Positions 1 to 62,568 of a stretch of DNA of 64,000 nt are shown here, piece by piece. The notes under the pieces were generated by a model, which made no database searches, was not told the DNA's origin, and saw only the letters and a program-made list of their open reading frames with translations. Position 1 is the stretch's first letter, and the number at the start of each line of letters is the position of its first letter. The DNA comes from Eledone cirrhosa (taxonomy: Eukaryota), in the NCBI GenBank assembly GCA_964016885.1, contig OZ024745.1, forward strand, positions 107,942,001 to 108,006,000. The letters run 5' to 3'. Made by a program: the position numbers and the translations under genes.

Positions 1-2365
1 TTTCTCATATATATATATACACATACATACATTATATACATGCATATATGATTTCCTTCGAATGAAACAATTCTAATCTTGCAATTTCTATATTAAATAT
101 TATACATATATATATATATATATATATGCATATACATACATTAGACATATCCATCCATTCATACATATAGTATATTCACACATCCATCTATACACACGCA
201 CATTAGTTAGATGCATGGAAACCTACTCACACGCATACATATATACATACTTACATACATATATACATATATCCATACACACATACATGCATACTCTCAC
301 ACATACATACATACATATTACATACATACGTATATACATACGTACATACATACTATATACATACATACTACACACATGCTATATAATGCTTCACACAACT
401 ACTTCAACTATCAAGTTAATTTACACCTCAACAATATATCTAGTTAAATACGCTAAGCAATTCTTTTATATAATTAACTGAAGCTCCGTAAAGATAGTGG
501 AATTAGAATGCATGTCACTATGGCACGTCAAATCTTTTTTGTTTTCTCTATGAGCAAGTATGCAATGAGCGTAATATAAAACCGTTAATACTAACAAGGT
601 TTTCTCCCACACACACCTTAATCAACTGAAGCAGAAAGCGAAATGATAAGGCAACAATAATCTTGCAGCTTTACCTTGATTTGTTTCGATTGTGTTGACA
701 GCAAGTTAGTTATTCTGTTGGAGTTAGCTTCATTAAATCGGGTTTGTTTTCTTTCGTGAAATGTGATAAGCTGAATCTGCCAAATTCATCAACTATTTTA
801 CATTAAAAACACATGAATTGAAAATAGATAGATACGACCTCAAAGAGGTCGTTTATCCTGATAGAAATTATAACTAAATCTACTTCAAAACCACACTATT
901 CCGTCTAAAAAGAAGGGTACATTGTATAATGTAAATCTTGCATGTGCAATGCTGTGGGTGAGGCTGGAGATGTGAGAGTTATGGCTAGAATGTTCTTTGG
1001 TCAATAGAGCTGTGTTTAGCAGATTGAGCGACCAGATAAAGGTTTTCTCGTTGTTAAGGTAGTGGTTGAGGTTTAGCAGCATTTCAGCCTTAATTGAGCT
1101 GACCTATGATTAAATAATCTTTAGCCCTGACAATACCGAATATTGAGATAAGGTTTATCTCAAATTATATTATATAAAATATACTTCTTGTCTTTAAAGA
1201 AGTTTAGCTCCTATTTTTAGCAGGCCAATCGACTGCTTTGATGGCTCCTTCGTTGACTCGTATTAATCGGCGGTGAAAGTTAACTGGGTTAAATGTCACG
1301 ACATGACAAGGTCAGAGTTAATTACTCTTACTCCAAACACTATGTATCTCAGGATTTAATTCAATAGGTGGGGAGCAATTATTATTATTTTCCGTGTATT
1401 TTGGGTGGAATGCTATCATCTTTCATCCAACTCGCCAGTTAAAATGTCAACAAATTCTTGCTGTTCATATCATGATAATGATTATAAAAACACCGACAAT
1501 AACAATAATTATTATTTATAGTGGATTGGCAGTATCGGTAGAGGGTCGGACGCCATGCTTTCCAGCATAGTTACGTCCCTTTATGATCTGAGTTCAAATC
1601 CCGCCGAGGTTGACTTTACCTTTCATCCTTACGGGGTCGATAAAATAAAGTACCAGTAATGCACTGGGTAATTGCTGGCCTTGTGCCTAAAGTAGAAACA
1701 ATTATTTATACTATAGACACAAGGCCAACAATTTTGGGGAGGTGATAGTTGATTAAATCGACCTCAGTGTATTACTGGTACTTTATTTTATCGACTCCAT
1801 AAGGATGAAAGGAAAAGTTAATCTCGGCGGGATTTGAAATCAGAACGCAAAGAGCCGTAACTCTATGCCGCAGTAAGAGGGCACCAAAACTATCTCTTCA
1901 CTCTTTAGGGTCACCAAAGAATGAGACTTCGCCTCTTGGGGGGTGGCAAAAAGTACATCCACGGTGGCATATGTTTTGCCTCGGTTGATGTGGGTTTTTC
2001 GTGCCCAGACGCACCCCAAGGCCTTTTGAATTTGACCTCCATGGCTCTCTCCACCCGATGTGATCTTTTGCTTACAGTGCGGTAAGTCACCGTCTGCAGT
2101 TGTTGGTCATTGAAATAATCGGGTGGAGGTTTCAGGGAGACTTGATTGGCTTTTCTCGTCACCATGGCCCTTGCGATTACCATCTCCTCCTCCGTGAATA
2201 TTACTCTCTAAATTTCTGGCCACCCCCCGCAAAAGAAATTATCCTTTTTTTCAGAGGCACCATTGTTGCTGCTACTGGTTTTGTTGGTGGTGCTGTTGCT
2301 ACTGAGAAAACTATATATTCTCGCCTGTTTTCAAGTCCAACAGTCGCAGTCGCAAGAGTGGGAGG

Positions 2366-40804: not shown

Positions 40805-42962
40805 TCATCATCATCATCATCATCACCGTTTTACGTCCGTTCTTCCACGCTAGCATGGGTTAGACGGGTTGTCCTGTTGTGGGCAGTGTCTGGTCGGCTG
40901 ACCATGCCTTGCTCATACAGGAACTGATCTGGCTTGATTTCTACAGCTGGATGCCCTTCCTAACATCAACCTCATTTACAGTGAGTGCTGGGTGCTTTTT
41001 CGTGGCGCCTACACGTCCACTTTACAGTGTGGGCTGGGTGCTTTTTTGCCGTGGCACCTCCACGACCACCTTGCGGTGGGGGGGGGGGGGCATATTGATT
41101 ATATGCTTCAGCATGTACCCATGGGAGGTCGGGTACCCTGTATTACTGCGTGACGCCAGAGGTCACGGTCGTGTGTCATTGACTTTGAGAGGTGTAGTTG
41201 GGTTAGGTCGGCTTTTATCACCTCATCCCAAGTCATCTTGGGTCTCCCCACTCCGCGGTTTCCATCAACTTCTAGTGCTCTGCACCTTTTTATGCAGCTG
41301 TCATCCTTCATACGCATCACATGTCCATACCAGCGTAACCGCCTCTCCTGCACGCAGCATTTGATTCCTCTTATGCTCAGTCTCTCTCTCAATTCCTTTA
41401 TGCTTTGTCGTTCACGTATATTACTGTTACACATCCATCGGAGCATGCAGGCTTCGTTTCTCTCTAATCTACGTAAGTCTTCCACCTTCAGCGCCCAGGT
41501 CTCACTACCATGCAACATCGCTGTTCGGATACACGCATCATACAGTCTGCCTTTCATTCTGAGGGAGAAGCCTTTTGCAGCTAGCAGTGGTAGTAGTTCC
41601 CTAAACTTCTTCCATCCCGTTCTTACCCTAGTTATTGTACTTTCTGAGCACCCACCTCCGTTGCTAATTCGGTCACCTAGGTAGCAGAAGCTGTCTACTG
41701 TTTCTACAGGGCCCTCCCAGAGATTGGTGGTACTTGTTTCCTGTGGCTGTTTGCTTGCTGTTTCAGCACAGCTGCTGCATGTGAATCCTACATTCTTAAT
41801 TAAGCTTCCTGAGATCCCGCTACATCTCTTGTGTACCCATTGTTTGCATTTGGGGCAAAGAATGGAGTTCCTACCTACACCTTTCCTACATACTGAGCAA
41901 GGCCATTTCCCTGAGGGGATCTGGGTTCTGTTTTCTCGTCTACTTATAAGGACCTTAGTCTTTGTCATGTTGACTTTGAGGCCCTTTCTCTCTAGTCCCT
42001 GCTTCCAGGTTTGGAATTTATTCTCTAGTTCTACCATAGATTCAGCTATGAGTGCGAGGTCATCAGCATACAGGAGTTCCCATGGGCATCCGGTCTTAAA
42101 CTCCTCCGTTATTGCCTGCAGGACTATGATGAACAGGAGAGGGCTAAGAACAGAGCCCTGGTGGACCCCAACCTGTACGCTAAATTCCTCGCTATACTCA
42201 TTGCCAATCCTAACTTTGCTGACTGCTCCCCTATACATGGCTTGTACCGCTTTCACAAGCCATTCATCTACTCCTAGTTTTCTAAGAGCCCACCAGATTA
42301 CTGCACGTGGAACTCTGTCAAAGGCTTTCTCAAGGTCGACAAATGCCAAGTAGAGTGGCTTACTTTTAGCTAGGTACTTTTCCTGTAATTGCCTCACAAG
42401 GAAGAGGGCATCAGTGGTGCCTTTCCCTGGTACAAACCCAAATTGCATCTCGTCTATATTCACCCAGTCCCTAATCAGCTGTGCTATAACTCTTTCTGTT
42501 ACTTTCATGACCTGGTCCATCAACTTTATACCTCTATAGTTTCCTCTATCTAGTGCATCGCCTTTACCTTTGTAGCAGTTGACAATGATGCTACTGCACC
42601 AATCTTTTGGTATGGCCCCCTCTAGTATTACCTGGTTAACGATACGTGTGGTTATAGTGTGACCTACAGACCCAGATGCCTTCAGCATCTCGGCAGCTAT
42701 ACCCGATGGACCGGTTGCCTTCCCTATCTTCATATCTCTGATTGCCTTACTTACTACGCTGCCGCTGACTTGTACTGCTGGTCCCTCTATAGGGTCTACG
42801 TGGGGTAGGGTCTCTTCTTCCCATGCATTCTCCTCATTTAGTAATCTATCATAATGACTCTTCCATGCATCTTTCTTCTCAGCACTTGTGAGGGCAAGCT
42901 CACCTTTATCATTCCGGATACACTTCTCTCCAATGACATCACAACTATCTCTGACACACTGC
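40805..42962 (-). mobile_element. RTE/BovB-clade LINE, 5'-truncated; RT ORF 41108-42733
   Basis: Same RT motifs (YADD); 3' UTR and (GAT)n tail at ~40805-40826. Confidence 0.95.
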
Positions 42963-44419
42963 GATGTGTATGTCGATATCTGTGTCTATGTCTAAGGTTA
43001 TGTCCAGTAGTGAAGGTGCGTGGCTTTGTGGTTAGGATATTCAGCTTACAATCATAAGGTTGTGAGTTCGATTCCTGGAAGCGCATTGTGTCCTTGAGCA
43101 AGACACTTAATTTCACATTGCTCCAGTCTACTCAGCTGGCAAAAATGAGTTGTGCCTATAGTTCAAATGGCCAGCTTTGTCACATTTTGTGTCACACTGT
43201 GTCTCCCTGAGAACTACATTAATTGTATGCATGTCTGTGGAATGCACAGCATGTTAATTTCATGAGCAGGCTGTTCCATTGATCGGATCAACTGGAACAC
43301 TCGTCGTCGTAACCGACAGAGTGCCTCATGATGTTCTGTAACTTAGTAGTTCAACAAAAAGAGATTGATAAAATAAGTACCAGACTTAGAAAAATAAATA
43401 TTGAGGTTGATATAATTGACTAAATGCCCCAGCATGACTGCAGTTTAATGACTGAAACAAGTAGAAGAATAATACTATTAAAGAAAAGTAGTAAAACAAC
43501 AAGACACAGCTGAAACTAATTAGAGTTGCAGGGTAAAGAAGTTTGTTTCCCTGGTGGTTCCTGTTTCAATTACACTGTATAGTACCTATCAAAGTCTCAG
43601 GTTGACCAATGCATTTTGAGTGAAATTCAGTATATGGAATTTTCAGAAGCCTTTTATATGTTTGAATGTATGTGTGTGTATGTAATTCTGTATATCTATT
43701 GCCAATGAATACTGGGGAATGATGCATAAGTGAGAAAACTGAAAACCCAGTACTTTTGGAATAAAGTCCTTTATGCCATTTGTTCTACAGAATCACACAG
43801 AACTCCCTTTTCACTTACAGCATTGAAAATGCAATGAACCAGTGATTGGTATTTGCAATGGATTATGTCAGCGACCAGGATGCAAAGATGCACCAAAATA
43901 TTTCACATCTCATAAAATAAATAAAAAGTAAATATAAAATATTTTGTCCAGAATTATATTCCATACTGAAATGATCATTTTTTTCCCATATCATCGTCAT
44001 CATCATCATCAGTTAACATCCACTTTCACTGCTAGTAAGGGTTGGACAAGTCTTCATAGACCAAGTCAGTACTGAAAAGGGGCTACTGACATCCAAGACA
44101 GGCAAAGGGGTCTGCATACTGCTTACATATGGTCATGTTGAGTGCAGAAGAGTTGTTGTGCCTTTTGACACAAACTGAAGGATCTTCTCCCTTGTTTGAC
44201 AAGCTTTCTACAGCTGGATGCCCTTCCTAACACCAACCCCTTTACAGTGTGAACTGGGTAATTTTATTGTGTAGGTCACCAGTACTAGTCAGATTGTCAT
44301 GTTTTTTACACAACTAAAAGATCCTCCCAGCCCTTTGCTTGGCAAGCTTTGTATGACTTGATGCCTTTCCTATCACCAACCACATTACAGCATGTACAGT
44401 GTGTTTTACCATGTGGATC

Positions 44420-45860: not shown

Positions 45861-48251
45861 TGGTATATAAATGCCAGATAAAACAAGTATACACATACTA
45901 CTTAGATACATATTTGGGTCAGATTAGGTAAGATAGATAAGATAACGGAAACTAGTGTGCAAAAACTATTTAGAAAATGAATGTTTAGAGAGATTGTGAT
46001 TAAATAATAGTGTTAAATAATAGAAATAGGACTTTGAACAAAAAGGCTCCTGTGCCTTATCACTTCAAAGTGAAATTAAATAAACAAGTAAGTTTAAAGC
46101 CAGCATTCGTCTCCTTGAAATCGCATGATTATATCTAAATTCAGGAAAATCTGAAAAGTAATAACATTCTGTCTCTAATTGTGTACAAACATGACTGTGA
46201 AAGAAGTTTACTTTATGACCTTGTAGTTCCAGATTCAATCCTATTACACAACAGCTTTGACAAGTGTTTTTTACCATAGACTCAAATTGACCAACACATT
46301 ATGAGTAAAATTTGGGACATAGAAACTGAATGGAAGTGTGTTATACATGCATGTGTGGATATGTGTGTACATATGTGTGTTTCAGTGTGTATTTGTGTTT
46401 GTATTGTATGGTCCTGTAACTCCTGTTAGAGTCGTAGAGGCACCGAGTTGACATATGGAGTTTCTTGGACATTTTAAACCTGAGTACAGAAGATTTCTTC
46501 CAGAGAGAGGAAGAATCGATCCCAGTATTAGACTGGTACTTTTTTTTTATCCACCTCAAAAGGATGAAAGGCAAAGTTGACCTCAGCAGGATTTGAACTC
46601 AGAGAGCCGGAACGAATACCATAAAGCATTCTATCAGACATTCTAACGACTCAGCCAATCCACCGCCTATAAGTGTATATATGTTTTGCCAATGTATATT
46701 GGTGAAGAATATAAATATTTGCAAGAATACCATGAAAATAAATATATTTTTTTTAATAAGATAAAAAAAAAATTGGTGTATTACAAATGAAGCCCCTTAA
46801 AATTTTGTTCCACATTGAGTTAGACACTTCCTTGCCCCTTTCACCATCAGAAATGCAGTCAACCAATGATTGACTTATTACAGATCTGTCACCAATTGCA
46901 ATATAAAATAAAATAAATATGGTACAGACAACAAAGTGTATATGGTGAAATTAGTCCAGTAACTGGTTTAAGATCATTGGACCACACCATTGGAGAGACA
47001 CTGTGATGAGCATAAATATTTAAGTTAAGAGAGTGTTCAGGTTTGCTTGAAGCATTGTGGAATATGATAAATAGTCAGTTTGGAAGCCTCTACAATGCAG
47101 AGGAGTAAATCTTCTGGCAATGAAATCCAGTGGCATAGGAGAAGAAAAAGGAAAACAAACGTAAATTAATGCAAAAAGGAGGAAAGAGGAAAAAGAAGAA
47201 AAAGAATGCCAGAGTGTGTACCTTAAAAATATTAATAAATCTTTTAAGGTACACAGATTCGGGCATTCTTCTTCTTCCAAACTGACTATTTTTCATTTTA
47301 AGTTAATTACATTTTCATTTTAAGTTAATTACATTTTCATTTTAAGTTAATTACATTGCAAAAGTATGTACATGATGCAAATTAAACTGGCTATTTTAGT
47401 TAAGCTCTGGTTTGTGTTTGGTATAAATAGTGATTTTCTATGAGTTCTATTTGTAGGTAAATTCTTTTTTTCTATTAATTCCAATTAATAAAACGTAACT
47501 CCTGATAGAGTCATAGGGGGACTGTAGTGGCATACAACGTTTCTTGGGCATTGTTAAACCTGGCTGAACCTATCCCTATCCATGTCTGAACACAGCAGAT
47601 CTCTTCCAGAGAAAGATAGAGAGTGAGAGAATGGAAGTGAGAAAGAGAGATAGAGGAAGAATCAAACTCAGTGTTAAACTGGTACTTTTTTTTTTATCAA
47701 CCTCGAATGGATAAAAGGCAAAGTTTACCTCAGCAAGATTTGAACTCAGAAATGAAGCCAGAATGAATACTGTAAAGCTTTCTATCTGACGAATCTGACA
47801 GTTCACCACCTGTAGGTGAATTTAAATATAGGTAATTCTCTTCTGGTGAAAAGCAAATTAGCTGTGAAACATGTAAAGAAATAGGAAATGCATTATTTGT
47901 GTGGGAAAGTTTTAAAGGGTTACATACATATATATATAAATGGGTATGAATCGAAGTTGAAGCCACAATATAGCAGGTACTAATCAAATTGTTTGAGGCA
48001 ATCACAAAGCACTCAATGGAGCGAGAAGTTAATACATTATCGTCCAGTGTGTATATATATATATATATATATGAAATACGTCCCGTCACGCACAAGGCGC
48101 CAAGGTACGCATGTATTGTCCAACCAAGTGCCAGTGTGGTTCAATGGCGGGTTAATAAATTAACGAGCCAGAACAAATATAAACAAGGTTTAGTAAATAA
48201 TGAAAAAGTTTCAAAATAAATTTTAAAAAATTGACTTTACCTACTATAGTT

Positions 48252-48335
48252 ACCTTTACCGATCGGTTTCGAATCCCAAAAATAAAACGGAGGCCATACG
48301 GCCTTCGTTGCAAAGAGAGATTCTCGTCAGAAGGT
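48252..48335 (-). ncRNA. Type I hammerhead ribozyme (array copy 1)
   Basis: Minus strand: ACCTT-CTGACGA-GAATCTC...GGGATTC-GAAA-CCGATCGG-TA-AAGGT; canonical core, G-C closing stem II, palindromic stem III, GUA site. Confidence 0.9.
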
Positions 48336-48734
48336 TCTTTTCATTCAAAGAATATAAAATTCCTGAATTTAAATCACAAACTAGCGCTATCAAAGACTGT
48401 TCCTGGGATGAGAGTGGATGATGTAGAACAGGTTTATCAAGGGCCGTAGTAAAGATAGAGGCAAAAGGAGGTAGGTCAAACTAGCCACCGCTGTTGTCAG
48501 CAGCAGTCGGAATGACCCGGTTTATTCTCAACGTTTGTGGAGGTAGTAGTAATATGAAATATGTCCCGTCACGCACAAGGCGCCAAGGTACGCATGTATT
48601 GTCCAACCAAGTGTCAGTGTGGTTCAATGGCGGGTTAATAAATTAACGAGCCAGAACAAATATAAACAAGGTTTAGTAAATAATGAAAAAGTTTCAAAAT
48701 AAATTTTAAAAAATTGACTTTACCTACTATAGTT

Positions 48735-48818
48735 ACCTTTACCGATCGGTTTCGAATCCCAAAAATAAAACGGAGGCCATACGGCCTTCGTTGCAAAGAG
48801 AGATTCTCGTCAGAAGGT
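48735..48818 (-). ncRNA. Type I hammerhead ribozyme (array copy 2)
   Basis: Same sequence as copy 1. Confidence 0.9.
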
Positions 48819-49217
48819 TCTTTTCATTCAAAGAATATAAAATTCCTGAATTTAAATCACAAACTAGCGCTATCAAAGACTGTTCCTGGGATGAGAGTGG
48901 ATGATGTAGAACAGGTTTATCAAGGGCCGTAGTAAAGATAGAGGCAAAAGGAGGTAGGTCAAACTAGCCACCGCTGTTGTCAGCAGCAGTCGGAATGACC
49001 CGGTTTATTCTCAACGTTTGTGGAGGTAGTAGTAATATGAAATACGTCCCGTCACGCACAAGGCGCCAAGGTACGCATGTATTGTCCAACCAAGTGCCAG
49101 TGTGGTTCAATGGCGGGTGAATAAATTAACGAGCCAGAACAAATATAAACAAGGTTTAGTAAATAATGAAAAAGTTTCAAAATAAATTTTAAAAAATTGA
49201 CTTGACCTACTATAGTT

Positions 49218-49301
49218 ACCTTTACCGATCGGTTTCGAATCCCTAAAATAAAACGGAGACCATACGGCCTTCGTTGCAAAGAGAGATTCTCGTCAGAAGG
49301 T
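49218..49301 (-). ncRNA. Type I hammerhead ribozyme (array copy 3)
   Basis: Core intact; substitutions only in the distal part of stem II. Confidence 0.88.
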
Positions 49302-49404
49302 TCTTTTCATTCAAAGAATATAAAATTCCTGAATTTAAATCACAAACTAGCGCTATCAAAGACTGTTCCTGGGATGAGATATATATATAGTTTTAATATA
49401 GATG

Positions 49405-49455
49405 AGATTCTACAGGACTAGAACTGTTTCATTCTTTAGAAATCATCAGGAATCT
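49405..49455 (-). ncRNA. Type I hammerhead ribozyme, copy in the inverted pLTR
   Basis: Exact reverse complement of 55337-55387. Confidence 0.75.
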
Positions 49456-50051
49456 GGGTATCAAAAAATAAATATGGTATTTATAGGTCTCAACAAGTGG
49501 TAGGAGAGGGTGGGGAGTGGGATGGGTGTAGGTCATTGGTTGATAGAAAAGGGAATTCATTAAAAGCTAATTCTACAAAGCTATAGTTTATTTTTAATTT
49601 TTGTTTTTAGAGTAACAAAGGCAGACAGAATTCTATAAACAGGTTCCGGATGGCATACCATTCCTTGTCATTAAGTTTCTCTTAAGCTAACAGATGTTTA
49701 TAAGATCAGTGGGGGGGGGGGGGGGTCAGTCATGGTAGATAGAATTAAAAGAAAGGGAGATTCTTTAAAAGCTAAATTCATTAAGGTTCTACTAAGTGAC
49801 AAAGGTTTAGAGAATTCTGTAGACAGATTCAAAATACTGAGTGCATATCTTACAATTATCTTCAAACTTCTCTTAAACTAATCAACTATATGCCAAAAAT
49901 CAACAGACACATTCACAAAAAAACACACTCACTCACACACTCGCGCGCAACCATAAACACACATACACATATACACACATACACATATACACACATAAAA
50001 AAAACCCACACACATATATAAATATATTTATATACACATATATATACACAC

Positions 50052-50083
<32 letters not shown>

Positions 50084-50221
50084 ATATATATATACACACA
50101 CACACACACATATATATACACTCACACACATACATACATACAGATATACATGTGTATACATATACATATATATACACATACATATACATATATACACATA
50201 TATATATACATATATATACAC

Positions 50222-50252
<31 letters not shown>

Positions 50253-50331
50253 ATATATATATATATCCATATACACACATATATATATATATATATATAT
50301 ATTTTATATACACACCTGCACACACTTCAAG

Positions 50332-52236
50332 ATGATCAAGGATATTAAATTCCGTAGAGCCACCACACCATTCCAGGCCTACTTAAATGCCGAATTACGG
50401 AATATAAAAAAATCCCCAAATCTTTCTGTCTCCTCCGATAAAACCAAAAACGTTTATGAGGTAGACCCACAGACCTACAATAAGCTGGCAAAAAATACCA
50501 TCACGACCACCTACAAAAAGGTAATAGAAAGGGCACTGACTGAGACAAACGCGGCCGGAAAAGAAATCGCCAAGTCCCTTAAATTACACGACCGAACCGA
50601 ACCTTTAAGGGTAAAGACCCCGCACTTTACCCTGAAGGACCATAAGGGAAACTTCCTCAACAAACCATCAGTCAGACTTATCAACCCCACTCGTTCTGAC
50701 ATCGGCTCTATCAGTAAGAAGATCCTGGATAGAGTTCTACCATCATTGCGGGCAGCCTCACCACTTCCACTCTGGAGCAGAACATCTGAGGCAATATCAT
50801 GGTTCCAAAAATTACCCGACAAACACCACACTCGCTTCCTGCAACTCGACATAGAAAACTACTATGCCTCTATCTCGGAGCCCCTCCTGAAGGACGCAAT
50901 TAACTTTGCCAGGAATTTTACCACTATTACCGATGCTGAGCAAGTTGTTATCCTCCACGCTCGTAAGACCTTTCTATACCACGATGGATCTTACTGGATC
51001 AATAAGAAATCTCAGACCCCATTTGACGTTAGCATGGGGGCGAGTGACTCGGCTGAAATTAGCGACCTTGTGAGCCTGTACATCCTACATCACCTGAAGA
51101 ACCTCTTTACCGGCCTAACGGGAGGTTTATACCGAGACGACGGCCTCTTCGCCCTGCATAAGGTTAACCCCAGAACCACCGATGGGTTTCGGAAAAACTT
51201 TAGCTCTTTCTTCTCTAATCTAGGATTTAGTATAACTATAGAATCTAATTTGACTAGGGCCAACTTCTTAGATGTCACTCTCGACCTAGATACTTCCCTC
51301 TATTACCCGTACCACAAACCTAACGAGTCCCTTAAATATATTAATGTTAATTCAAACCACCCCCAAAACATCACTGATAACCTAGTAAAAAGCGTCTCTA
51401 TTAGAATATCTGGCCTCTCCGCCAACATAGATATTTTTAATGCATCTGCCTCCTACTACAATGACGCCCTCGCCCGTAGCGGATTTAAAGATAAGATAAC
51501 TTACCTAGAAACCACCGCAAGATTGCAGAGGAGGAATAGACATAGGCAGATTAGCTGGTACAACCCTCCCTTCAATAGAGAGGTATCTACTCCGATAGCT
51601 AGGATTTTCTTCACTTTGCTGAAATTACACTTCCCCATACAACATAGGTACCACACCATCTTTAATAAGAACACAATAAGACTGTCTTACTCCACCACAC
51701 CTAACCTAGCTAGGAATATAGCCAACCACAATTCTAAAAAATTAAATAAGCCAACCACCTCCGAACCCAATCCCCGGACTGGGGCTCTATGTAATTGCCT
51801 AAATAAGGAAGCATGCCCACTTGAAAACAAATGCCTCACAAATGATATCGTATACAAATGCGATGTCATCTCAGGCACCGAGGATTGCAAAAAAACTTAC
51901 ATCGGCATGATCTCCAACAACTTTAAGACCCGTTGGTATGCCCATACCCACTCCTTCAGAAGACCGGACAAATCAAATCAGACAACACTCGCCTCCTACG
52001 TTTGGGACCTCAAAAGGAACTCCACCCCCTTCACGCTTAAATGGAAAATACTCCAGAAAGCGCGCTCTTACAACGGAGGACACAAGGGCTGCGACCTTTG
52101 TATTTCAGAGAGCTACGAAATTTTATTCGCCAAGGGCCCGCTACTGAACAAACTCTCTGAACACTGCCCGAACTGCATTCACAAGAACTTTGCAACTTTC
52201 AAACACTTTAAGCCAGTGTTAAAGCCCGATGGCTAA
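50332..52236 (+). CDS. Penelope-like retroelement (Naiad-type) RT plus C-terminal GIY-YIG endonuclease, 5'-truncated but otherwise uninterrupted
   Basis: RT motifs [38 protein letters not shown] and NFLDVTLDL; linker WYNPPF; Cys cluster CNC..CP...C; GIY-YIG IVY..TYIG..FKTRW..H..E..LLNK. No in-frame stop in 634 aa. Confidence 0.9.
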
Positions 52237-53430: not shown

Positions 53431-53486
<56 letters not shown>

Positions 53487-53684
53487 GATAAATCTACCAA
53501 GAGTTTACGGTAGTGTCCAATCCGTATGAAGAACTCAATGTATTCCGAATATCATGGAAAGAAGAGATGTAATGAAAAATCACTTTCGGTGAAAGATAAA
53601 CGGTATACAGAGTCAAGATAAAATATTAAACAAATAATGAATAAAACAATGAAACAGTTCCTTATATTAAACAAAAAAAGTTCA

Positions 53685-53831
53685 TTATTTAACGATCGTT
53701 TCTAGGATATATATGTGTTAGAATTGGCATGCATATTCAACAGATCTATGTACAAAATTATACAAAATTATACAAACTATCAAGATTAAATATACATACC
53801 AAACACACATATACGCCGTCTTCAGAAATAA
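53685..53831 (-). ncRNA. Mirror-image type I hammerhead with long stem II
   Basis: Reverse complement of 53833-53979. Confidence 0.7.
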
Positions 53832-53832
53832 A

Positions 53833-53979
53833 TTATTTCTGAAGACGGCGTATATGTGTGTTTGGTATGTATATTTAATCTTGATAGTTTGTATAATTTT
53901 GTATAATTTTGTACATAGATCTGTTGAATATGCATGCCAATTCTAACACATATATATCCTAGAAACGATCGTTAAATAA
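53833..53979 (+). ncRNA. Type I hammerhead with very long stem II
   Basis: TTATTT-CTGAAGA-[~116-nt hairpin]-GAAA-CGATCG-TT-AAATAA; GUU site. Confidence 0.7.
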
Positions 53980-54098
53980 TGAACTTTTTTTGTTTAATAT
54001 AAGGAACTGTTTCATTGTTTTATTCATTATTTGTTTAATATTTTATATATATATATATATATATATGAATATATGTATGAATGGTGTATCTCTCTCTC

Positions 54099-55336: not shown

Positions 55337-55387
55337 AGATTCCTGATGATTTCTAAAGAATGAAACAGTTCTAGTCCTGTAGAATCT
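55337..55387 (+). ncRNA. Type I hammerhead ribozyme in the PLE pLTR
   Basis: AGATTC-CTGATGA-tTTCTaaAGAAt-GAAA-CAGttctagtcCTG-TA-GAATCT; stems I, II and III pair; GUA cleavage triplet; stem II closing pair is a U-U mismatch. Confidence 0.75.
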
Positions 55388-55639
55388 CATCTATATTAAA
55401 ACTTTTATACTCTGCAATGTATTGAGTACCTTACTTACTGTGGTTACCTCCGATTCAACCCGGAATAACGTATATATATATATATATATATATATACCAG
55501 TGGCGAAGGGTAACCTGGAAAGCAGGGCATGCAGTCCAATCACTATGGCGGAAAGTGGGGCTGGACAGCCTTACCTCCCCCCCCCCCCTCACAATTCCCT
55601 CTAAATGACCCTCCCGGTCAAAGCCGCATGTAGTGTTAT

Positions 55640-60072: not shown

Positions 60073-60120
60073 TGGACAATAAAATAATTGTATAAAGAGA
60101 AGTACATATATATATATATA

Positions 60121-62568
60121 TGTGGAACAGTAAGGTGGAGGGGTCAATTAAGGCCAAAAAGCAGGCTTGGAAAGTATGGCGGGATGGGGGAAGTAGAGAG
60201 GACTATCAAGTGGCCAGGAGGGAAGCTAGGAGACAAGTGTACTTAGCAAGAAGGGAAGCTGAGGAAAGAAAGTTCAAGCATGTTCTACAACGCGATGACC
60301 AAAAACGTGAGGTGTTCAGGATTGCTAGGCAATGCGTCAAGGAAAACCGTGATATTGTCGGGGAGAAGTGTGTACTAAACGACGATGGCACACTTGCCAT
60401 CACCGACGCTGATAAGAAGGTAGCTTGGAAGTGTCACTATGAAAGGCTTCTAAATGAGGAGAATAATTGGGAGAAAGGCAGTCTCCCCCATATCGACCCA
60501 ATAGAGGGACCAGCAGTGTTAGTCGAGGGGAGTATAATAAGTAAGGCAATCAAGGATATGAAGACTGGTAAGGCGGCTGGGCCTTCGGAAATAGTTGCTG
60601 AGATGCTGAAGGCATCTGGCACGGTGGGACACACCATGGTCACCCGCATAGTTAACCAAGTCGTACAAAACGGGGTTGTTCCGAAGGACTGGCATAGCAG
60701 CATCATCGTTAACTGTTATAAGGGTAAAGGAGACGCCCTAGATAGGAGTAACTATAGAGGCATTAAATTAATCGACCAGGTCATGAAGGTCACGGAAAGA
60801 GTAATAGCGCAACTAATCAGAGAGAGAATTGACCTAGATGAAATGCAGTTCGGGTTTGTGTCAGGCAAAAGTACCACAGACGCTCTTTTCATAGTACGAC
60901 AACTACAAGAGAAGTACCTAGCTAAAGGTAAACCCCTCTACTTAGCTTTTGTCGACTTGGAGAAAGCCTTCGACAGAGTCCCCCGCTCCATTATCTGGTG
61001 GGCTCTTAGAAAACTAGGCGTTGACGAATGGCTTGTGAGGGCTATACAAGCCATGTATAAAGAAACAGTCAGCAAGGTTAGAATTAACAACGAATATAGT
61101 GAAGAGTTTAGCGTAAAAGTCGGCGTCCATCAGGGCTCTGTTCTCAGTCCACTACTATTTATTATTGCCCTTCAGGCCATAACAGAGGAGTTCAAGACAG
61201 GCTGCCCATGGGAACTCCTATACGCAGACGACCTGACACTCATAGCGGAATCAATGGCCGAGCTAGAGAAGAAATTCCAAACATGGAAGCACGGCCTAGA
61301 GTCAAAAGGACTTAAAATTAACCTGGCTAAGACCAAAGTACTAGTTTGTAGGAAAGAAAACAAGGCGGCGGTCCCTTCTGGGAAATGGTCGTGCTCGGTG
61401 TGTAGGAAAGGCGTAGGTAGAAACTCCATTTTATGTCCTAAATGCAAAGTATGGGTGCATAAAAGATGTAGTGGGATCACAGGTAGGCTAACTAAGAACA
61501 TAGATTTTACATGTGGCCGGTGCTCTGGTGCAATAAGTAGCAGCAAGTGCCCACAAACTACTAGCTCTTTCAATTGCGCAGAGGGTTCTATAGAAATAGT
61601 GGACAGCTTCCGTTACCTGGGCGATAAAATCAGCAGTGGGGGAGGGTGCTCTGAAAGTACTGTAGCTAGAGTCAGAACTGGTTGGAAAAAGTTCAGAGAG
61701 CTTATACCACTATTAGCTGCTAAAGGGTTCTCACTAAAAATGAAAGGCAGGTTGTACGATGCCTGCATACGAACAGCAATGCTGCATGGCAGTGAGACCT
61801 GGGCATTGTGTGCAGAGGATATACGCAGACTAGAGAGGAACGAAGCTTGCATGCTCCGCTGGATGTGTAACAGTAATATACGTGAACGGCAAAGCATAAA
61901 CGAACTAAGGAATAAATTAGAGATAAGAGGGATCAGATGTTGTTTACTCGAGAGAAGGCTACGTTGGTATGGACACGTGATGCGCATGAAAGTCGATAGC
62001 TGTATAACAAAGTGCAGGGCAATAAAGATAGACGGTAGTCACGGAATAGGCAGACCTAGAAAAACCTGGGACGAGCTGATAAACTCCGACATCACACACT
62101 TACACCTCTCCAAGACAATGTCACTGGACCGAGACCTTTGGCGGTACTCAGTAACAGAGAAGACCCGCCTTACCTAAATATATAGTAAAACCTACTCCAG
62201 CCAGTAGGCATCTCTAACAAATACACCCCGTCCCACCACCCCCACCCGATCCACACCACCCCGTTCTATGTAAAGTTATGTTGGTGCCGCGCCATCGAGG
62301 CCGAAACAAATGAGATCGTGTAGGTGTCACGACAAAAAAACACACAGTCCACGCTGTAATGTGGCCGTGTAGGCAACACGGTAAAAACCTCCCAGACCCA
62401 CACTGTAAATGTGGTTGGTGTTAGGAAGGGCATCCAACTGTAGAAAACCTGCCAGACAGTCCTATGCGAGCAAGACAATCACTCTTGCCTCAAGTGGGAC
62501 TACCCCCGTCCAAACCCATGCAAGCGTGGAACACGGACGTTAAACGTTGATGATGATGATGATGATGA
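60121..62568 (+). mobile_element. RTE/BovB-clade LINE, 5'-truncated; RT ORF 60120-62177 open, 3' UTR ending in (GAT)n, inserted in (TA)n
   Basis: NYRGIKL, QFGF, FVDLEKAFD, GVHQGSVLSP, LLYADD, a Cys-rich PHD-like insert (CSVC..CPKC..HKRC..CGRC) and RLRWYGHV. Confidence 0.95.

What the first reader, a model, noticed from the sequence alone, without database searches (positions are those of the whole stretch)
48071..49379. 483-bp tandem array with three canonical hammerhead ribozymes: candidate retrozyme / circular-RNA-producing element
Seen: each unit carries on the minus strand ACCTT-CTGACGA-stem II (GAATCTC/GGGATTC, capped by a further AAGGCC-gtat-GGCCT hairpin)-GAAA-CCGATCGG-TA-AAGGT. Units are nearly identical, have no credible ORF and sit between (TA)n tracts. 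Known: non-LTR retrozymes are tandem non-coding repeats with type I hammerheads that are processed into monomeric circular RNAs and are thought to be mobilised by PLE enzymes; palindromic stem III permits dimeric cleavage. Inferred: a transcript would be cut between 49223/49222, 48740/48739 and 48257/48256, releasing two 483-nt monomers. A 2.7-mer with arbitrary ends fits reverse transcription around a circular template. It directly abuts a Naiad PLE, a plausible mobiliser, but shows no visible similarity to that element's pLTR.
Basis: partly seen in the sequence, partly recalled or inferred. Interest (0 to 1): 0.9.

Follow-up and report, generated by a model that had tools for sequence, protein, structure and literature searches.

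The report
Hammerhead retrozyme with Penelope copying signal
A 483-base non-coding repeat with a hammerhead self-cutting RNA motif sits at hundreds of places in this animal genome, and its two fixed ends and a small hairpin shared with Penelope-type jumping genes suggest that their enzyme pastes it in, probably by copying round an RNA circle; the kind of element is known, the likely enzyme signal is a useful new lead.

Summary
The array is real: 2.7 units of 483 bp, three type I hammerheads on the minus strand, cut sites as stated. It is one copy of a dispersed non-coding family (1,252 exact hammerhead 18-mers genome-wide), a new member of the animal non-LTR retrozymes. Two first-reader points fail. 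The ends are not arbitrary: 168 of 175 arm 3' ends running into (TA)n lie about 80 or about 188 nt after the cut, and 25 of 26 young two-armed copies use one site per arm, the footprint of Penelope-like elements (PLEs). The neighbour fits the Hydra clade, not Naiad, and most likely inserted separately. A bulged hairpin just after the first site is shared by this family, sister retrozymes and the neighbour's Hydra family; two hybrid retrozyme-Hydra copies exist. Arrays are internally near-identical with scar-free unit junctions, which favours a circular template but does not prove it; some copies are mosaic. Cleavage, transcripts and circles are untested. This scan reported this family and anatomy before on other DNA of this genome.

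The parts
48069..49379 (-). One-armed retrozyme insertion, 1,311 bp: 5'-truncated at unit position q327, two full 483-nt units, 3' end at q188 (q = nt after the hammerhead cut)
49218..49301 (-). Type I hammerhead 1, predicted cut 49223/49222
48735..48818 (-). Type I hammerhead 2, predicted cut 48740/48739
   Evidence: covariation in relatives
48252..48335 (-). Type I hammerhead 3, predicted cut 48257/48256
48257..48739 (-). Predicted 483-nt monomer (second one 48740-49222)
   Evidence: release is inferred
48668..48739 (-). Conserved AU-rich hairpin after the cut (q1-72), ahead of the short start site q~80 (48660; also 49143, 48177)
   Evidence: fold (z -2.9 for q1-125); conservation; ends
48622..48657 (-). 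Bulged tail hairpin GTTC-TGG-loop-CCA-TT-GAAC (q83-118); further copies 49105-49140 and 48139-48174
   Evidence: (z -3.8)
48053..48072 (.). (TA)n target at the long start site (q188), with ATAT overlap between element end and target
49380..49389 (.). (TA)5 spacer between the retrozyme's 5' end and the neighbouring PLE
49389..50310 (-). Neighbour PLE: inverted arm ending at its short site, with its own hammerhead (core at 49449, cut after 49411)
50332..52236 (+). Neighbour PLE ORF, 5'-truncated: DKT (50437), YRDD (51130), CxCx5C (51790), YIG (51898); Hydra-type
55343..55471 (+). Neighbour PLE 3' end: hammerhead (cut after 55381), short site about 55403, tail hairpin ACTC-TGC-aat-GTA-TT-GAGT at 55409-55427, long end into (TA)n

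Best explanation
This is one insertion of a dispersed, protein-free hammerhead repeat family (a non-LTR retrozyme) that is likely written into (TA)n tracts by the reverse transcriptase/endonuclease of Hydra-clade Penelope-like elements, probably from a unit-length RNA circle. Steps: (1) an array is transcribed, promoter unknown (inferred); (2) successive hammerheads cut out 483-nt monomers (predicted from fold and covariation); (3) a host ligase closes them (inferred from coral, mussel and axolotl retrozymes); (4) a Hydra-type enzyme binds the bulged hairpin at q83-118 (motif sharing shown, binding inferred); (5) it nicks both strands of (TA)n and starts cDNA inside the RNA at q~80 on one DNA end and q~188 on the other (fixed ends shown; priming inferred from the anole PLE assay), so no free RNA 3' end is needed; (6) it runs through the unit junction until it drops off, giving arms of about 50 to over 4,000 nt (lengths shown); both arms are joined head to head, or one is kept, as here. 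My odds by step: standalone retrozyme 0.93, PLE-type insertion 0.9, Hydra-clade enzyme 0.7, circle as main template 0.55.
For: Dispersed, many chromosomes, 95-100% identity among the best 40 of 1,456 candidates, older lineages down to about 70%. 168 of 175 3' ends into TA at q71-84 or q181-196 over 120 loci; 25 of 26 two-armed copies among 39 young loci have one end of each kind; 5' ends fall in 20 of 21 bins of the unit. PMC11167929 shows this pattern arises from two internal RT start sites and priming on both strands. The neighbour's Hydra family has the same short/long ends. Hairpin shared with compensatory letters by retrozyme families A-D and Hydra-A, 108-109 nt before the start codon in 20 of the 29 other Hydra-A loci; outer pairs complementary in 46 of 126 contexts upstream of TA against 9 for a decoy rule. 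Two hybrids join an older subfamily to Hydra-type ORF sequence without TA (L168, L176). Units differ by 0.70 sites within arrays against 22.6 between loci; young set 0.84 against 4.43, 0 of 2,000 permutations as low. 13 locus-private alleles are fixed in all copies of 11 loci, 10 in both arms; L138 has two in 12-13 copies. 235 of 235 junctions matched by the pattern have no indel at the cut. q1-120 and q381-483 are the most conserved parts.
Against: No RNA evidence of any kind. The anole PLE uses uncleaved RNA in vitro, so an uncut multimer can be a template. 25 of 81 multi-copy loci carry sites where both alleles are common elsewhere; L045 (14 sites) and L141 (9) clearly mix two templates, and in this window two hammerheads share a base the third lacks. 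11 arms stop within q476-q8 against 4.4 expected (P 0.0055; 188 passes), which hints at cut linear templates or at palindrome-guided joins. Private alleles are private only within 120 sampled loci. The hairpin is found in dozens of families, so it names no single partner; Hydra-B has it with one mismatch and a third Hydra family lacks the strict form. Naiad and Neptune PLE ends were not examined, so Hydra specificity is untested. The active hammerhead fold lies 2.1 kcal/mol above the lowest fold of the 90-nt piece, and 8 of 9 Xenopus retrozyme dimers did not cleave in vitro.
Confidence: 0.6

Rival explanations
1. Same element and same PLE machinery, but the template is linear: an uncut multimeric read-through transcript, or cut monomers joined by template jumps. 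Circles, if any, are by-products.
For: Uncleaved RNA is the main substrate of the anole PLE. Mosaic arrays L045, L141 and this window. Excess of arm stops near the cut. Hybrids show that template switching happens.
Against: Pure copying of multimers can only shorten arrays and should pass on unit-to-unit differences, yet lineages 12% apart each have long uniform arrays (L138: 0 of 483 differences between arms). Jumps between monomers should leave scars; none in 235 matched junctions.
Confidence: 0.3
2. Short PLE-type insertions were expanded afterwards at the DNA level (unequal crossing-over, slippage, conversion), so the arrays are minisatellites and their uniformity says nothing about the RNA template.
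For: Proposed in discussion by Li et al. 2026. Adjacent units sometimes share a variant the others lack (L050 units 3-4; this window).
Against: Both inverted arms share haplotypes and private alleles; arm lengths form a smooth tail from 51 to 4,270 nt with 5' ends all round the unit; very young copies are already long.
Confidence: 0.07
3. The unit is the end repeat (pLTR) of an autonomous PLE that I did not sample, and the arrays are its 5'-truncated remnants.
For: Anatomy equals a pLTR with tail; Xenopus retrozymes are homologous to pLTRs; only 120 of several hundred loci were seen; two copies touch Hydra ORF sequence.
Against: Units repeat directly head to tail up to about 10 times per arm with no ORF between. 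The two hybrids involve two different Hydra families and join mid-ORF or inside the 3' UTR. No alignment to 20 Hydra-type 3' flanks rose clearly above shuffles and none to 29 plus 39 Hydra loci except one chosen from a retrozyme locus.
Confidence: 0.03

Closest known systems
Metazoan non-LTR retrozymes (coral, mussel, axolotl; Cervera and de la Pena 2020, PMC7229834, parts 2-4 of 6 read; review PMC7761336, passages; Li et al. 2026, 10.64898/2026.07.22.740005, parts 1-3 of 5 read)
   Same: Non-coding tandem units, one type I hammerhead per unit, GC under 50%, dispersed monomers to multimers, PLEs in the same genome.
   Different: Unit 483 nt, above the 150-450 bp of the 2020 paper but inside the 51-972 bp of the 2026 preprint. 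Long branched stem II missed by Rfam. The parts I read describe no fixed start sites, two-armed insertions or shared partner motif; the review says the repeats show no conserved motif pointing to the partner. Cleavage and circles are shown there, not here.
EN+ Penelope-like elements: Poseidon of Anolis (Frangieh et al. 2024, PMC11167929, parts 1-3 of 4 read) and the pLTR/tail anatomy (Craig et al. 2021, 10.1101/2021.04.23.441226, passages and section 11 read)
   Same: Two start sites downstream of a hammerhead, tail on one end only, inverted 5'-truncated arm, AT-rich target, a stem-loop at the start region.
   Different: No ORF; tail about 108 nt, not 30-40; arms are multimers of one non-coding unit; ends show ATAT overlap with the target, whereas the anole enzyme starts at a site not homologous to the cut DNA.
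Hydra clade of PLEs (Craig et al. 2021, section 11)
   Same: (TA)n target, hammerhead present; the local Hydra-A family shares the tail hairpin and the short/long end pattern.
   Different: No primary-sequence homology to Hydra-A ends beyond the hairpin; cut-to-short-site distance 80 nt against about 22; Hydra encodes its own enzyme.

Membership tests
Non-LTR retrozyme | Tandem units of a few hundred bp with a type I hammerhead in at least two consecutive units | tested here: met
Non-LTR retrozyme | Non-coding, GC below 50% | tested here: met
   longest stop-free frame 81 aa, GC 40%
Non-LTR retrozyme | Dispersed multicopy and independent of an ORF-bearing element | tested here: met
   117 of 120 loci free of a joined Hydra-type ORF, 2 hybrids, 1 abutting; only a Hydra protein was used as probe
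Non-LTR retrozyme | No LTR, primer-binding site or polypurine tract | tested here: inconclusive
   no LTR-type layout in 120 loci; PBS and PPT not searched
Non-LTR retrozyme | Self-cleavage of the RNA | not testable with these tools
   fold and covariation only
Non-LTR retrozyme | Monomeric linear and circular RNA in tissues | not testable with these tools
   no RNA holder listed
Non-LTR retrozyme | Target-site duplication longer than 4 bp when present | tested here: inconclusive
   cannot be read inside (TA)n
PLE-type insertion | Two fixed 3' ends downstream of a hammerhead, tail on one end | tested here: met
   168 of 175 ends; 25 of 26 two-armed copies
PLE-type insertion | Inverted 5'-truncated arm | tested here: met
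   26 of 39 young loci; this window's copy is one-armed
PLE-type insertion | Sequence homology to the pLTR of an autonomous family | tested here: not met
   only the tail hairpin is shared
Naiad (neighbour) | N-terminal endonuclease, DKA motif, no hammerhead | tested here: not met
   YRDD precedes YIG, DKT, hammerhead present
Hydra clade (neighbour) | C-terminal GIY-YIG, DKT, CxCx5C linker, hammerhead, (TA)n target | tested here: met
   Pfam GIY-YIG only weak (E 0.11); Atlas neighbours are HTH_animal/GIY-YIG/RVT proteins
Hydra clade (neighbour) | Lack of CCHH motif; placement in the RT tree | not tested
   no reference PLE set or tree used

The most novel reading that the evidence does not exclude
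A bulged hairpin (NNTC-TRN-loop-NYA-TH-GANN) just after the first start site is the general RNA signal by which Hydra-clade Penelope enzymes pick their template. Retrozymes in this genome keep that signal plus a hammerhead and nothing else, and because Penelope enzymes start inside the RNA and prime from both DNA strands, one RNA circle can be copied round and round in both directions. That would name the missing partner signal of animal retrozymes and explain how an RNA without a 3' end undergoes target-primed reverse transcription.
Probability: 0.4. Interest if true: 0.8.

Novelty: new member of a known kind. Interest (0 to 1): 0.55.

Why it matters
Which enzyme moves animal retrozymes, and whether the circle is the template, are open; the 2020 review states that no conserved motif points to the partner. 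This family gives a defined RNA, two mapped start sites, a candidate recognition hairpin with natural compensatory variants, and young intact Hydra ORFs in the same genome, so both questions can be tested in the published in vitro PLE assay. As an element it is an ordinary member of a known class.

Tried and rejected
Rfam found nothing at gathering or E 10: the long stem II probably defeats the models. No RNA holder listed; four contig runs of unrecorded kind from one study cover the unit but show no ends or circles. PDB sequence search with the neighbour ORF gave nothing; Pfam gave nothing at E 0.001. A sequence-level partner was sought in the neighbour element, in 20 Hydra-type 3' flanks and in two more Hydra families: none found. 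Rejected: neighbour as Naiad; neighbour copy as the enzyme source (it lacks about 120 N-terminal residues); array as part of the neighbour (no unit in 29 other Hydra-A loci with 1.5 kb flanks); obligatory dimer cleavage (palindromes CCGATCGG, CCGCGCGG, CCGTACGG and, in sister families, CTGATCAG, CTAATTAG favour it, but CCGATTCGG occurs 18 times); hidden ORF in a circular reading (stops in all six frames). The hairpin shuffle count (227 against 0-3) is inflated by repeat copies, so I rely on the decoy test. A promoter was not looked for.

Full report
Observation. The array lies at 48069-49379, period 483, 2.7 copies. Each unit carries on the minus strand a type I hammerhead with canonical core and GUA triplet; cuts are predicted at 49223/2, 48740/39 and 48257/6. 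There is no ORF over 81 aa and GC is 40%. Rfam misses it. Among 72 distinct hammerhead sequences from fetched loci I aligned 26, chosen for divergence; on a structure I drew, 91.6% of cells pair and 7 of 24 pairs change on both sides, mainly in stem II (relatedness inflates the shuffle control). Positions below are q, counted from the cut.

Family. The unit has 1,456 first-look candidates, of which the best 40 were scored; exact 18-mer and 25-mer patterns occur 1,252 and 1,739 times, controls 0. I studied 120 loci: 39 best-scoring plus the window, 40 chosen from the first hammerhead-pattern hits on C1 and 40 tail-pattern hits lacking that 18-mer. They range from 100% to about 70% identity. In 17 divergent loci q1-120 and q381-483 differ from the window unit by 0.6-8% per 20-nt bin, q161-260 by 14-37%. 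With a Hydra protein as probe, 37 loci hold ORF fragments nearby, but only 3 without a TA spacer. So it is a standalone non-coding family.

Ends. Of 175 arm 3' ends that run into TA, 100 lie at q71-84, 68 at q181-196 and 7 elsewhere. 26 of the 39 young loci have two head-to-head arms, and 25 of these have one end of each kind. 5' ends are spread round the unit. The window copy is one-armed with the long end. Craig et al. describe the inverted arm and one-sided tail of PLEs; Frangieh et al. show that the anole PLE nicks and extends both strands and starts inside the RNA at two sites after the hammerhead, the tail lying between them.

Neighbour. The ORF at 50332-52236 has RT (YRDD) before YIG, DKT and CxCx5C, and a hammerhead in both end copies. 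These are the Hydra features; Naiads have an N-terminal endonuclease and no hammerhead. No tree was built. This copy is 5'-truncated; many near-identical copies elsewhere have open frames of about 758 codons. None of 29 other such loci has the unit within the fetched flanks, so the adjacency most likely reflects a shared (TA)n target.

Partner signal. Three other tandem hammerhead families turned up in the flanks. All keep GTTC-TGS-loop-SCA-TW-GAAC just after the short site. An earlier scan note (e1-8664520) led me to look for it in coding families. Hydra-A has ACTC-TGC-loop-GTA-TT-GAGT at the same place, 108-109 nt before its start codon in 20 of 29 other loci. Dozens of other families have variants 37-105 nt before a terminal TA run. 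With inner pairs and fixed letters required, the outer two pairs are complementary in 46 of 126 distinct contexts upstream of TA, against 9 under a decoy rule; far from TA 35 of 325 against 14. Hydra-B has it with one mismatch; a third family lacks the strict form. L168 and L176 join an older subfamily to ORF or 3' UTR sequence of two different Hydra families, each with a retrozyme long end on one side; template switching is my reading, deletion between neighbours is the alternative. The signal points to the clade, not to one family; Naiad and Neptune ends were not checked.

Template. 115 full units differ by 0.70 sites within loci and 22.6 between; among young loci 0.84 and 4.43. 13 alleles private to a locus are fixed in all its copies, 10 across both arms (four complex loci and homopolymer columns left out). 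No indel sits at the cut in 235 junctions that the pattern matched (badly scarred junctions would escape it). RT passed the cut 188 times among 106 arms with a canonical end and at least 90% identity. This needs re-multimerisation from one unit, which a circle gives simply, and internal starting removes the need for a 3' end. Against: 25 of 81 multi-copy loci have mosaic sites, two are clear two-template copies, and the window's own units share one discordant base; 11 stops near the cut against 4.4 expected.

Literature. The class is known (PMC7229834; preprint 10.64898/2026.07.22.740005, whose supplements I did not see and which may list similar elements). Five full-text searches returned no paper describing fixed start sites, two-armed copies or this hairpin in retrozymes; the library lacks most subscription papers and Repbase was not available. 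The RtcB-type ligation step rests.

Verdict. Real; a new member of the non-LTR retrozymes, with a clear PLE footprint and a candidate enzyme signal that make an open question testable. Interest 0.55. The scan has noted this anatomy in many windows of this genome; those notes are not independent support.

Noticed in passing
window 53486-54046: A small fold-back insertion nested in the Hydra element's 3' microsatellite: near-perfect 429-bp palindrome (53618-54046) with one longer arm that carries the same tail hairpin with a 65-nt loop (minus strand 53613-53533); no hammerhead core seen in that arm.
   Followed up: partly
L044:5750-6530, L060:5950-7480, L132:4850-5900, L062, L100, L139: Sister retrozyme family of about 477-485 bp with stem III CCGATCGG or CTGATCAG and the same tail hairpin.
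   Followed up: partly
L051:6000-9900, L057, L048, L130, L101, L133: Sister retrozyme families of about 540-560 bp with stem III CTAATTAG and a UU cut triplet; L051 is a long two-armed array.
   Followed up: partly
L136:3070-3180, L211: Hydra-B ends carry a hammerhead-like fold with core CAGAAGA in place of CUGANGA.
   Followed up: no
L168:2900-5100, L176:2250-4530: Hybrid insertions joining an older retrozyme subfamily to two different Hydra-type ORFs without a TA spacer.
   Followed up: partly
L031:6462-6485 and about 20 other loci: Very common family with tail hairpin ACTC-TAC-loop-GTA-TT-GAGT; whether it is autonomous was not determined.
   Followed up: no
window 41108-42985 (-) and 60096-62177 (+): Two long ORFs with RVT_1 followed by a PHD finger, non-LTR retroelements unrelated to this finding.
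   Followed up: no
window 48-105: Diverged short end of a Hydra-A-like element (74%) running into TA.
   Followed up: no
L045:4365-5593: Two-armed copy mixing two subfamilies, with both arms ending at or near the hammerhead cut (q1, q7): possible jump between cut monomers.
   Followed up: partly
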